From Octopus vulgaris (lineage: Eukaryota), in contig OX597820.1 of NCBI GenBank assembly GCA_951406725.2, positions 73,284,001-73,348,000 on the forward strand: DNA of 64,000 nt, given 5' to 3'. Under the pieces are notes generated by a model. The model was not told the origin of the DNA. It saw only the letters and a list, made by a program, of their open reading frames with translations, and searched no databases. This document shows positions 8,301-31,048 of this stretch, in pieces; position 1 is the stretch's first letter; every line of letters starts with the position of its first letter. A program made the translations under genes and the position numbers.

Positions 8301-8905
8301 CATTTCTATTACAAAAATTGGTACAAGGTCTCTGGCCTGAGCTTTAATTGCAGCTCTTACACTCAATAATTGCGGAGGGCCTCCTTGCTCCTCTGGTTAA
8401 TAAAAACTAAAATGGAATTTAATGCAAGGTCGACTTTGCCTTTAATCCTTTCGAGGTCGATAAAGCAAGTACCTTTTGAGCAAGGGTATCAATGTAATCG
8501 GCTTACCTCTGCCCCGAAATTGCTGACCTTTAGCTAAAACCTAAAACTAATAGTATATTGGGCCATTTAAGTAAATAATAAAAGCCGCCACATCATCGGT
8601 CTAAAATTATATGTAATATGAGAAAACATAGATGACTTGAATTCAGGCGTGACTACGTTTTGGGTGAAGAAATGAAGATAAAAATTGTAACAATATCTAG
8701 TGAAATTGTAAAAGAAGGTATAGCTAATGGTTTCTTTGATCATACATAACATTAATTGAAACAAACTTTAGATATCAATTCAGTTAATTTTGGGACATAA
8801 TTGAATTTGTAATGGCTTTTCATTGCAGCTTTGCCATGGAGAAAAATTCTCATTATTTACATTATTTACATTTGATGGATATTTGTCCTTATCGTGTTTG
8901 TTATT

Positions 8906-8951
8906 AACACAACGTTTCGTTTGATATGCCTTCCAGCCTTCATCAGGTGTC
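8906..8951 (-). ncRNA. Minimal type I hammerhead motif (family E), stem II partly mutated
   Basis: gacac CTGATGA A GGCTG..CAAAC GAAA CGTT gtgtt. Confidence 0.65.
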
Positions 8952-8998
8952 TTGGAAATATTTCGAAACTGGGTTCTCATTCCTAAGGTATTTTTCGA

Positions 8999-9041
<43 letters not shown>

Positions 9042-9045
9042 GTTA

Positions 9046-9089
<44 letters not shown>

Positions 9090-9147
9090 ATCACTGCCTG
9101 GAATCGAACTCGGAATCTTGGGGTTAACCACTCCGCCATATGCCCGT

Positions 9148-9220
9148 GGCATATGGTGTAGTAGTTAAGAGCGCGGGTTACTAACCCCAAGATTCCGAGT
9201 TCGATTCGAGGCAGTAACCT
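9148..9220 (+). promoter_or_regulatory. tRNA-derived Pol III head (A and B boxes) of family E
   Basis: TGGTGTAGTAGTT A box, ggg-ttactaa-ccc anticodon-like arm, GAGTTCGATTC B box; no complete acceptor stem. Confidence 0.75.
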
Positions 9221-9221
9221 A

Positions 9222-9271
<50 letters not shown>

Positions 9272-9318
9272 TAATAATAATAACATCAAAAAATACCTTA
9301 GGTTTGAAATTTCCCCAA

Positions 9319-9364
9319 GACACCTGATGAAGGTTGGAGGATGTATCAGCGGAAACGTTGTGTT
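9319..9364 (+). ncRNA. Minimal type I hammerhead motif (family E), stem II partly mutated
   Basis: gacac CTGATGA A GGTTG..CAGCG GAAA CGTT gtgtt. Confidence 0.65.
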
Positions 9365-9580
9365 AACAGCAAACAAGATGAGGACAAATATCCATCTAAT
9401 GTAAATAATGTACATAATTTCTCGTCTCTCAAATAATGAACTGAGAAAAATTCTCTCTTTAAACAAAATAGCATTAAAGTTTGTTTATTTTCCGTCACTG
9501 CTTCGCACACCAGTGTACATATTTGCTCAGGCCAGGCGGCCTGCTCCCACAATCAGTCAATAATATTTAGTGATTTCCAA

Positions 9581-30310: not shown

Positions 30311-30439
30311 AAAAAATCTGTAGAGATAACCTTACTTGTTTCAGTTACTCGACTGCAGCCATGGTGGGGCACCGCTTTGAAACGATTTAGTCAAACAATT
30401 CGACCCACGTGCTTATTTCTTTGAAGTCTGGTACCTCTA

Positions 30440-30476
<37 letters not shown>

Positions 30477-30586
30477 ATGTGTGTGTGCGTGTATGTTTTT
30501 CACCACCGCTTGACAATAGTTGTTTATTTAACTTTATTTACATTGTTTAGATTCGACGGATATTTGTCTTCATTTTGTTTGTTGTT

Positions 30587-30632
30587 AACACAACGTTTCG
30601 GCTGATATACCCTCCAGCCTTCATCAGGTGTC
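30587..30632 (-). ncRNA. Minimal type I hammerhead, intact core
   Basis: gacac CTGATGA A GGCTG gagggtatat CAGCC GAAA CGTT gtgtt. Confidence 0.8.
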
Positions 30633-30748
30633 TTAGGGAAAATTCGAACCTAGGTTCTCATTCCTAAGGTATGAGGGTTCATTCCTTAAGGTTCTCATTC
30701 CAAAGGTATTACCTTAGGAATGAGAACCCAGGTTCGAAATTTCCCTAA

Positions 30749-30794
30749 GACACCTGAAGAAGGCTGGAGGGTATATCAGCCGAAACGTTGTGTT
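30749..30794 (+). ncRNA. Minimal type I hammerhead, intact core
   Basis: gacac CTGAAGA A GGCTG gagggtatat CAGCC GAAA CGTT gtgtt. Confidence 0.8.
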
Positions 30795-31048
30795 AACAAC
30801 AAACAAAAGGAGGACAAATATCCGTCGAATGTAAATAATGTAAATAATGTACATAATTCCTCATCTCTTAAATATAGAACTGTTTACTTAACTGTTAGAA
30901 AGAAACCGATAGAATAAGTGTCTGACTTTAAGGAGAAAGTCCTGGGATCGATTTGTTCCACTAAACCCTGCAAGGTGTCCCAGTATGGTCGCAATCCAAT
31001 GACTGAAACAAGTAAAGGATAAAAACTTGAAAAATGATTTACAGAATA

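What the first reader, a model, noticed from the sequence alone, without database searches (positions are those of the whole stretch)
30521..30893. Independent inverted dimer of the same family with two intact hammerheads and a stuttered junction
Seen: the family E tail is again inserted with both 3' ends outward, with a 13-bp TSD (one mismatch), inside a SINE B. One arm is complete at the 3' end (...tagaact) and the other is shorter, as at 8.8 kb. Both ribozymes are intact but differ at N7 (CUGAUGA vs CUGAAGA). The junction (about 30650-30712) has roughly three imperfect tandem copies of ggttctcattcctaaggtat. Inference: both target strands prime on separate RNA copies, possibly held together through the ACGU stem III palindrome, and the cDNAs are joined after template jumps. 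This differs from L1 twin priming, where the two arms do not overlap.
Basis: partly seen in the sequence, partly recalled or inferred. Interest (0 to 1): 0.75.

Follow-up and report, generated by a model that had tools for sequence, protein, structure and literature searches.

The report
Back-to-back Penelope retrotransposon ends
This hairpin is two truncated ends of a common Penelope-type jumping gene inserted back to back, the usual shape for this family; across the genome the two halves share variants and only one carries the 35-base tail, so both were likely copied from one parent RNA.

Summary
Arms 30534-30672(-) and 30710-30881(+) differ at 7 of 138 nt. There is a 13-bp TSD, two minimal hammerheads and a 37-nt re-copied junction, inside an old SINE. 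The arms are the pseudo-LTR of a protein-coding Penelope-like element (about 14,000 tailed ends), and the right arm holds its first 54 codons. Head-to-head arms, a one-sided tail and a TSD are the published PLE architecture, and 76 of 100 consecutive tailed copies have an inverted arm. Mixed-haplotype dimers number 0 of 56 (12.6 expected from random pairs), and this locus's arms share rare variants, so the N7 difference is likely a later mutation. What is added: 47 of 51 dimers have exactly one tail, neither arm nests in the other (39:38), and both outer ends show target microhomology. This best fits both target strands priming at two staggered sites on one source RNA, with end-joining and local re-copying at the centre. 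One RNA versus two RNAs from one locus is unresolved, and no empty allele was found. The scan noted this family and two-armed insertions before on other DNA.

The parts
30497..30520 (+). 5' part of the host SINE copy (tRNA-type octopus-like SINE body; family name not established)
   Evidence: Aligns with 9 paralogues L295-L303 when the insertion and one TSD copy are removed
30521..30533 (+). Left target-site duplication, 13 bp; carries the derived T (paralogues have C)
30534..30672 (-). Tail-less arm: PLE pseudo-LTR, family positions 10-148, 3' end facing out
   Evidence: stretch 30616-30671 identical in a contig of run X1
30587..30632 (-). Minimal type I hammerhead, N7 = U (30623); predicted cut after 30592
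   Evidence: cleavage not tested
30673..30709 (-). 37-nt junction insert: two extra imperfect copies of family positions ~10-30, in the orientation of the left arm
   Evidence: middle not covered by independent data
30710..30881 (+). Tailed arm: PLE pseudo-LTR, family positions 11-182, 3' end facing out
30720..30881 (+). First 54 codons of the PLE ORF (open, from ATG); N7 is the Asp/Glu wobble base
   Evidence: Translation, and read-through into the ORF in tandem copies L161, L163, L164, L171
30749..30794 (+). Minimal type I hammerhead, N7 = A (30758); predicted cut after 30789
   Evidence: cleavage not tested
30848..30881 (+). One-sided 34-nt PLE 'tail' (36 nt with the microhomology into the TSD)
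30881..30893 (+). Right target-site duplication; its first 3 nt also match the element RNA
30894..31020 (+). 3' part of the host SINE copy

Best explanation
This is a doubly 5'-truncated, head-to-head insertion of the pseudo-LTR of a protein-coding Penelope-like retrotransposon, likely made when both strands of a staggered target cut primed reverse transcription on one source RNA at two neighbouring internal sites. Shown: the arms are the pLTR of an RT-bearing element; exactly one arm has the tail; both arms come from the same source; each was truncated independently; a ~12-bp TSD frames them. Inferred: the endonuclease cuts both strands ~12-13 nt apart. One end primes at the sharp downstream site (positions 180-188) and the other at a looser upstream site (128-162, in the AATGTAAAT repeats), helped by 1-2 nt of microhomology. 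The downstream-primed cDNA runs over the same RNA by displacing the other cDNA, so the arms overlap and differ only by the tail. The two cDNA ends are then joined by microhomology-type end-joining. Here three rounds of slip-and-recopy over positions 10-30 left the 37-nt stutter. The hammerheads are passengers in the pLTR and ORF start, and the templates were uncut. Confidence: PLE identity about 0.97, two RNA-primed arms from the same source about 0.85, literally one RNA molecule about 0.55.
For: Family: 14 ORF-bearing loci plus L008 run EN-region to tRNA-like head to (AAT)n to this arm. RT is Pfam RVT_1, E 1e-9 and 3e-10, in 2 of 4 pieces. The tail reads on into the ORF in 4 tandem copies. 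Architecture: 76 of 100 consecutive tailed copies on C1 have an inverted hammerhead arm. Asymmetry: of 51 dimers picked by the hammerhead, not the tail, 47 are tailed+tail-less, 3 have no tail and 1 has two; p = 1.5e-9 against independent choice. Same source: concordance 58/60, 73/80, 59/61 at three markers; 11 of 201 discordant against 66 expected for random pairs and 8.4 from later mutation (P = 0.23); 0 of 56 mixed haplotypes; private variants shared 0.0036 against 0.0012 +/- 0.0004 per column, no trend with spacer length, subfamilies equally old at 3.9-4.3%. This locus's arms share variants of frequency 7%, 5% and 23%. Not fold-back alone: the tail-less arm reaches further 5' in 39 dimers and the tailed arm in 38, with 9 ties, and both end types also occur alone (19 and 18). 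Microhomology with the TSD is 1.9 against 0.73 +/- 0.13 (tail-less) and 1.4 against 0.48 +/- 0.14 (tailed, 44 of 59 scorable). Arms tend to share template class, long or short (5,0,1,13). In vitro precedent: Poseidon_Ac cuts and extends both strands and initiates at two internal sites that bound the tail. Overlap from one RNA is known in L1. Complex multi-copy junction inserts are an SD-MMEJ signature.
Against: Sequence cannot separate one RNA from two RNAs of the same locus. A leading/trailing pair on one RNA might be expected to leave the tail-less arm longer at the 5' side; it does not (39:38). Before CpG correction discordance was slightly above mutation (11 against 5.6, P = 0.03). Arm 5' ends correlate only weakly (rho 0.25). 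Gene conversion between arms could add to sharing, though no spacer effect was seen. Real fold-back pieces occur at the head palindrome (6 of 100 dimers), so self-priming does happen in this family, and such pieces inflate the stop/stop class (without them 5,0,1,8; p = 0.003 by hand). 41 of 100 dimers have no good TSD. The same 11-mer is also duplicated inside direct arms at 6 of 9 other loci, so the stutter may be RT slip-back, not end-joining. No empty allele was seen, and the stutter was not confirmed in independent data. In vitro, Poseidon_Ac showed no strand difference in start site.
Confidence: 0.55

Rival explanations
1. Two pLTR templates of the same source: two transcripts of one locus held by an asymmetric protein dimer, or two tandem units of one multimeric or circular transcript, each primed by one target end.
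For: It fits same-source sharing and the independent 5' truncation of the arms without strand displacement. The PLE protein is predicted to be a dimer. Tandem copies with an upstream pLTR exist here.
Against: It needs an extra rule to give exactly one tail in 47 of 51 dimers. Both arm types reach the EN region or body about equally (8 and 10 of 100), which a fixed 5'/3' pLTR assignment would not predict. 5' ends do not pile up at the hammerhead cut (4 of 63 within 5 nt).
Confidence: 0.28
2. Fold-back: one cDNA primed at the tail end self-primes, copies itself back to just short of the tail and joins the other target end by microhomology; later deletions at the palindrome centre scramble arm lengths.
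For: It explains same-source arms, the one-sided tail and the scattered, microhomology-rich tail-less end. Self-priming is the published proposal. Short fold-back pieces are real at the GCCC-AC-GGGC palindrome (80 exact sites). The third stutter copy is a perfect 19-bp hairpin with the right arm.
Against: The tail-less arm holds 5' sequence absent from the tailed arm in half the dimers, sometimes by hundreds of bases (L083, L200). Tail-less ends occur alone as often as tailed ends. The upstream site is an RT start on RNA in vitro.
Confidence: 0.12
3. One reading: two independently drawn RNA copies, tethered through the ACGU stem III palindrome, each primed by one target strand.
For: Both ends look RNA-primed. 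This locus differs at the N7 marker. Minimal hammerheads are built to dimerise. L1 makes rare two-RNA inverted insertions. Cofolding gives a dimer about 4 kcal/mol below two monomers, by other pairings.
Against: 0 of 56 mixed haplotypes against 12.6 expected, though the subfamilies are of the same age. The arms here share two rare variants. The ACGU duplex is -1.7 kcal/mol and absent from the cofold structure. The dimer is the cleaving form, yet 82 of 100 dimers cross the cut site on both arms. Hammerhead core mutants do not affect insertion in vitro. It predicts two-tail and no-tail dimers, which are nearly absent.
Confidence: 0.04
4. A TIR MITE or foldback DNA transposon.
For: Long inverted arms and a TSD.
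Against: The two ends are unequal and one is variable (128-162 against 180-188). TSD length varies from 9 to 22. The arms are the end of an RT ORF element.
Confidence: 0.01

Closest known systems
Endonuclease-bearing PLEs with inverted 5'-truncated pLTR and one-sided tail (Adineta Pen2a/Pen2, PMC3846280; general scheme, PMC8557442)
   Same: Head-to-head inverted pLTR, 30-40 nt tail on one arm, 8-13 bp TSD, pLTR overlapping the ORF start, palindrome near the pLTR 5' end.
   Different: Here both arms are pLTR-only fragments, copy number is about 14,000, and the tail asymmetry, arm origin and arm nesting are counted. The counts argue against self-priming as the whole story. The family pLTR carries a tRNA-Arg-like head.
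Poseidon_Ac of the green anole (PMC11167929)
   Same: Hammerhead at the ORF start, RT start sites inside the ORF's first ~160 nt, tail = interval between two sites, AT-rich targets (TSD GC 24%).
   Different: That work shows both strands cut and extended but does not treat inverted dimers or say which site each arm uses. Here the ATG lies upstream of the hammerhead, the upstream site is spread over about 35 nt, and kinship with Poseidon was not tested by tree.
Minimal hammerheads of metazoan PLE pLTRs (PMC4209133)
   Same: Helix I 5 bp, extra base between 9 and 10.1, G10.1-C11.1, palindromic 15.2-16.2; the paper already notes pairs 100-700 bp apart on opposite strands.
   Different: Helix II is 6 bp (paper 7-8). 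The cleavage triplet is GUU. Activity is untested.
L1 twin priming with internal duplication and template switching (bioRxiv 10.1101/2024.08.27.596794; PMC11702581)
   Same: Both target ends prime, TSD kept, microhomology at the second priming site and at the central junction; overlap and switches occur.
   Different: In L1 the second primer is far upstream, overlap is usually 1-10 bp, there is a poly(A), and inversion is a minority outcome. Here the two sites are about 35 nt apart, overlap is nearly total and it is the majority outcome.
SD-MMEJ complex templated insertions (PMC2943611)
   Same: Several overlapping imperfect copies of flanking sequence at a joint; loop-out and snap-back forms.
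   Different: The polymerase here is unknown. The same stretch is also re-copied inside arms, which suggests RT slip-back can do it.

Membership tests
Endonuclease-bearing Penelope-like element | RT ORF attached to the repeat | tested here: met
   RVT_1 above cut-off in L146 and L150; ORF region contiguous with head and arm
Endonuclease-bearing Penelope-like element | C-terminal GIY-YIG endonuclease | tested here: inconclusive
   No Pfam hit. Atlas neighbours score 0.96-0.97, with GIY-YIG on 13-14% of members. A VYSIPCSCG-x-YKGET motif is visible; reading it as GIY-YIG is recalled knowledge.
Endonuclease-bearing Penelope-like element | pLTR formed by partial tandem and overlapping the ORF start | tested here: met
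   Arm reads on into the ORF in L161, L163, L164, L171
Endonuclease-bearing Penelope-like element | 30-40 nt tail at one end | tested here: met
   34-36 nt here; 47 of 51 dimers one-sided
Endonuclease-bearing Penelope-like element | Inverted 5'-truncated copy and short TSD | tested here: met
   76 of 100; TSD 59 of 100, median 12
Penelope/Poseidon clade | RT phylogeny places it in the clade | not tested
   No reference set held. Domain order RT then EN-like region is compatible.
Penelope/Poseidon clade | Intact full-length ORF in the genome | tested here: inconclusive
   Longest stop-free ORF piece 301 aa in 14 loci examined; no exhaustive search
Minimal type I hammerhead (PLE type) | Core boxes, helices I and II, palindromic zero-loop helix III | tested here: met
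   against the description
Minimal type I hammerhead (PLE type) | Self-cleavage | not testable with these tools
   Only contigs for RNA runs; no pile-up of 5' ends at the cut
L1-type twin priming | Both target ends extended, TSD kept, microhomology at the second primer | tested here: met
L1-type twin priming | One RNA molecule is the template | tested here: inconclusive
   Same source shown; same molecule not separable
L1-type twin priming | Poly(A) priming and little or no overlap of arms | tested here: not met
   No poly(A); 138-nt overlap
TIR MITE | Fixed, identical termini and fixed TSD length | tested here: not met
Non-LTR retrozyme | Non-coding tandem monomers | tested here: not met
   The repeat is part of a coding element; the arm is the ORF start

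The most novel reading that the evidence does not exclude
A Penelope protein dimer copies one RNA twice at once. Its two RT sites sit about 35 nt apart on the ORF start, each takes one strand of the staggered cut, and the trailing one displaces the leader's cDNA. The PLE tail is then the footprint of that spacing, and palindromic two-armed insertion is the default PLE product, an overlapping form of twin priming unlike R2 or L1.
Probability: 0.45. Interest if true: 0.62.

Novelty: new member of a known kind. Interest (0 to 1): 0.36.

Why it matters
The locus itself is one of thousands and of a published shape. How PLEs make their inverted ends and one-sided tail is still called undefined in the papers read. 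The counts made here constrain that: one tail per dimer, same-source arms, no nesting, microhomology at both primed ends. They exclude random RNA pairs, weaken pure self-priming, and give a two-barcode test that the existing Poseidon_Ac in vitro system could run. Thousands of such palindromes would also be a source of long dsRNA where transcribed; this one folds at -236 kcal/mol, z = -31.

Tried and rejected
Rfam at gathering and E-value thresholds found no hammerhead or tRNA family, only hairpin artefacts. ARAGORN found no tRNA in the window or head. Pfam did not detect the endonuclease. Empty-site search: contigs of X2 (organism A) and X3 (organism B) carry the right junction, with 23 letters on the element side, under the tool's 31-letter bridging mark; X4 and X7 showed no informative piece; no joint skipping the insertion was among the listed rows, and 292 joints were not shown. 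Raw reads X22-X24 gave 0, 2 and 0 reads, so no test. Loop orientation at palindromic junctions (30 of 80 sites) was meant to separate fold-back from annealing; it split both ways and loops of perfect palindromes can flip later, so I draw nothing from it. The genome-wide stutter pattern gave 12 matches at 10 loci against 15 for the reversed control, so the count is not above chance; the loci are informative only because all lie in this element. A first reading as a separate tRNA-headed SINE was dropped once the head proved to lie in the coding element. Marker site 130 and the 9-nt repeat indel lie near an alignment-ambiguous repeat; the conclusion stands on sites 59 and 128 alone. Literature searches found no paper counting arm origin or tail asymmetry in PLE dimers. 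The library lacks most subscription papers, Repbase and Dfam were not searchable, and no supplements were read; the Frangieh and Craig supplements could bear on this.

Full report
Observation. The feature is present as described. A tail-less arm (30534-30672, minus strand) and a tailed arm (30710-30881) face 3' ends outward and differ at 7 of 138 shared bases. A 13-bp duplication with one mismatch frames them. Each arm has a minimal type I hammerhead with 5-bp helix I, 6-bp helix II and a GAAACGUU end; N7 is U on the left and A on the right. Between the arms lie 37 bases that re-copy family positions 10-30 twice. The flanks are one old SINE copy: with the insertion and one duplication removed they align with 9 paralogues, though this copy lacks about 30 bases near the site. 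The window holds one more copy of the family, at 8.8 kb, also inverted and with a 13-bp TSD. The host is inferred to be an octopus from recalled SINE types and from earlier scan notes; I did not test this.

What the arms are. The genome has 5,134 exact matches to the last 23 bases and 4,224 to a hammerhead 24-mer. 23 of 64 tailed arms carry the exact 23-mer, which gives roughly 14,000 tailed ends. In L008 and 14 further loci the arm is preceded by an (AAT/AAC)n tract, a 73-nt tRNA-like head and the end of a long ORF. That ORF has an RT domain (Pfam RVT_1 in 2 of 4 pieces) and a C-terminal region with Atlas neighbours that partly carry GIY-YIG; Pfam itself does not see the nuclease. In four tandem copies the tail reads straight into the ORF, and the window's right arm translates as its first 54 codons from the ATG at 30720. 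So the repeat is the pseudo-LTR of a coding Penelope-like element, priming is internal to the RNA, and N7 is an Asp/Glu wobble base.

How ordinary the shape is. Of 100 consecutive exact-tail copies on contig C1, 76 have an inverted hammerhead arm upstream, 5 another inverted piece and 19 none. The literature describes this shape: an inverted 5'-truncated copy, a 30-40 bp tail at one end and a short TSD (PMC8557442, passages; PMC3846280, passages and Discussion). Hammerhead pairs 100-700 bp apart on opposite strands are noted in PMC4209133 (parts 1-2 of 4). Poseidon_Ac cuts and extends both strands and starts RT at two internal sites that bound the tail (PMC11167929, parts 1-2 of 4).

Counts that bear on mechanism. 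I analysed 94 of the 100 listed hammerhead-selected anchors. They gave 51 distinct dimers: 47 with one tail, 3 with none, 1 with two, plus 19 lone tailed and 18 lone tail-less arms. Independent choice of start site predicts about 12:25:14 (p = 1.5e-9). I then pooled 100 one-tail dimers: those 47, plus 53 of the 76 tail-selected ones that passed end and distance filters and were not duplicates. A TSD of score 9 or more was found in 59, against 2 in flank-swapped controls; median length 12. The tailed end is sharp (positions 180-188) and the tail-less end spread (128-162, median 146). Both share more bases with the TSD than swapped controls. Neither arm nests in the other: 50 against 41 overall, and 39 against 38 when both arms start by position 100.

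One source or two. At three subfamily markers the arms agree in 58 of 60, 73 of 80 and 59 of 61 dimers. The 11 discordances compare with 66 for random pairing and 5.6 for later mutation (P = 0.03). The mutation figure rises to 8.4 (P = 0.23) once the CpG created by one marker is allowed for. No dimer mixes the two main haplotypes (0 of 56, 12.6 expected). Private variants are shared three times more than between arms of the same subfamily, with no trend by spacer length, and the subfamilies are equally old. The window's arms share three variants of frequency 7%, 5% and 23%, and their 5% divergence is below the 7-9% average for dimers. The N7 difference is therefore best read as a later substitution.

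The ACGU tether. The palindrome is real and typical of PLE hammerheads. But the 4-bp duplex is worth -1.7 kcal/mol, and the best cofold of the two motifs pairs other parts. The dimer is the cleaving form, yet both arms cross the cut site in 82 of 100 dimers and only 4 of 63 arm-internal 5' ends lie within 5 nt of it, about what an even spread gives. In place, any transcript has one sense and one antisense motif, locked in a long hairpin.

The junction. Among the 100 dimers, 48 junctions overlap by microhomology or a palindrome, 22 have a short insert, 15 lie in the microsatellite, 9 are blunt, 5 have a long insert and 1 is complex. Two inserts are clearly copied from nearby (L070, L098), and 6 dimers carry a short fold-back piece at the palindrome before the tRNA-like head. 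Exact tandem repeats of the window's stuttered 11-mer occur at 9 other loci: 3 at inverted junctions and 6 within or at the start of a direct arm, with up to four copies. So the stutter is rare but recurrent. It resembles complex SD-MMEJ inserts (PMC2943611, passages), and RT slip-back on the repeated ACCT/AGG words is as plausible. Its middle was not covered by independent data.

Mechanism. The most likely course: a staggered cut of about 12-13 nt; one target end primes at the tail end and the other about 35 nt upstream on the same source RNA; both copy 5'-ward over the same sequence, the downstream one by displacement; both stop early; the two cDNA ends are joined with microhomology or re-copying. 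Same source, one tail, independent truncation and the TSD are shown. One molecule, displacement and the joining enzyme are inferred. Two templates from one locus (0.28) and fold-back with later deletion (0.12) remain open. L1 twin priming also gives internal duplications and switches (10.1101/2024.08.27.596794, passages; PMC11702581, passages and section 7), so overlap does not by itself require two RNAs.

Novelty. The element is a new member of a known kind, and this locus is one of thousands. PLEs are annotated in octopus without such detail (PMC13282606, passages). The 2026 retrozyme preprint does not treat inverted arms (10.64898/2026.07.22.740005, passages). Nine searches found no count of arm origin or tail asymmetry, within a limited library and without supplements. 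Earlier scan notes on other DNA reached the same family reading and two-start-point idea; they are not independent support. Interest 0.36: ordinary as a locus, moderately useful as a constraint on an open mechanism.

Noticed in passing
window 9147-9220 and its inverted copy near 9090-9150; L032-L045; L197:1269-1346: The family pLTR begins with a 73-nt tRNA-like segment with A and B boxes, closest to tRNA-Arg(TCT) and Arg(TCG) among 25 distinct genomic tRNAs (z 8.3). Of 138 arms that enter it, 58 end within -10..+4 of tRNA +1 and only 15 run on to the ORF end. This could be a Pol III start or a hairpin stall. No TTTT lies in the next ~690 nt of the 4 tandem copies checked. Noted before by the scan.
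   Followed up: partly
window 8839-9455: Second inverted dimer of the family, with a 13-bp TSD, joined at the palindrome before the tRNA-like head; the right arm has a 14-nt deletion removing the ATG region.
   Followed up: yes
L264-L293 (80 exact sites genome-wide): The native quasi-palindrome before the head is often extended into a perfect 26-40 nt hairpin by 10-25 nt of fold-back, then a jump to the other arm.
   Followed up: partly
L343:1390-1560, L341:1500-1580, L011:1050-1500: Short tandem re-copies inside arms: four 30-38 nt units, three 38-nt units, and three 146-nt units with inverted bits. Suggests reiterative copying by this telomerase-related RT.
   Followed up: partly
L204: Rare tail-to-tail pair in which both arms run 12 nt past the tail into the ORF.
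   Followed up: no
window 30332-30373 / 30974-31015: A 42-nt, 79% inverted repeat around the locus; it is the 3' ends of two SINE copies in opposite orientation, not part of the insertion.
   Followed up: yes
family positions 128-150: A 9-nt unit (Asn-Val-Asn codons) varies between two and three copies among arms, keeps the frame, and covers the loose upstream priming zone.
   Followed up: partly
whole window: No convincing protein-coding ORF of 150 aa or more; nearly all listed frames are microsatellite-derived. 51.4-53.5 kb and 62.2-63.9 kb appear to be inverted copies of one ~1.5-kb CA-rich stretch.
   Followed up: no
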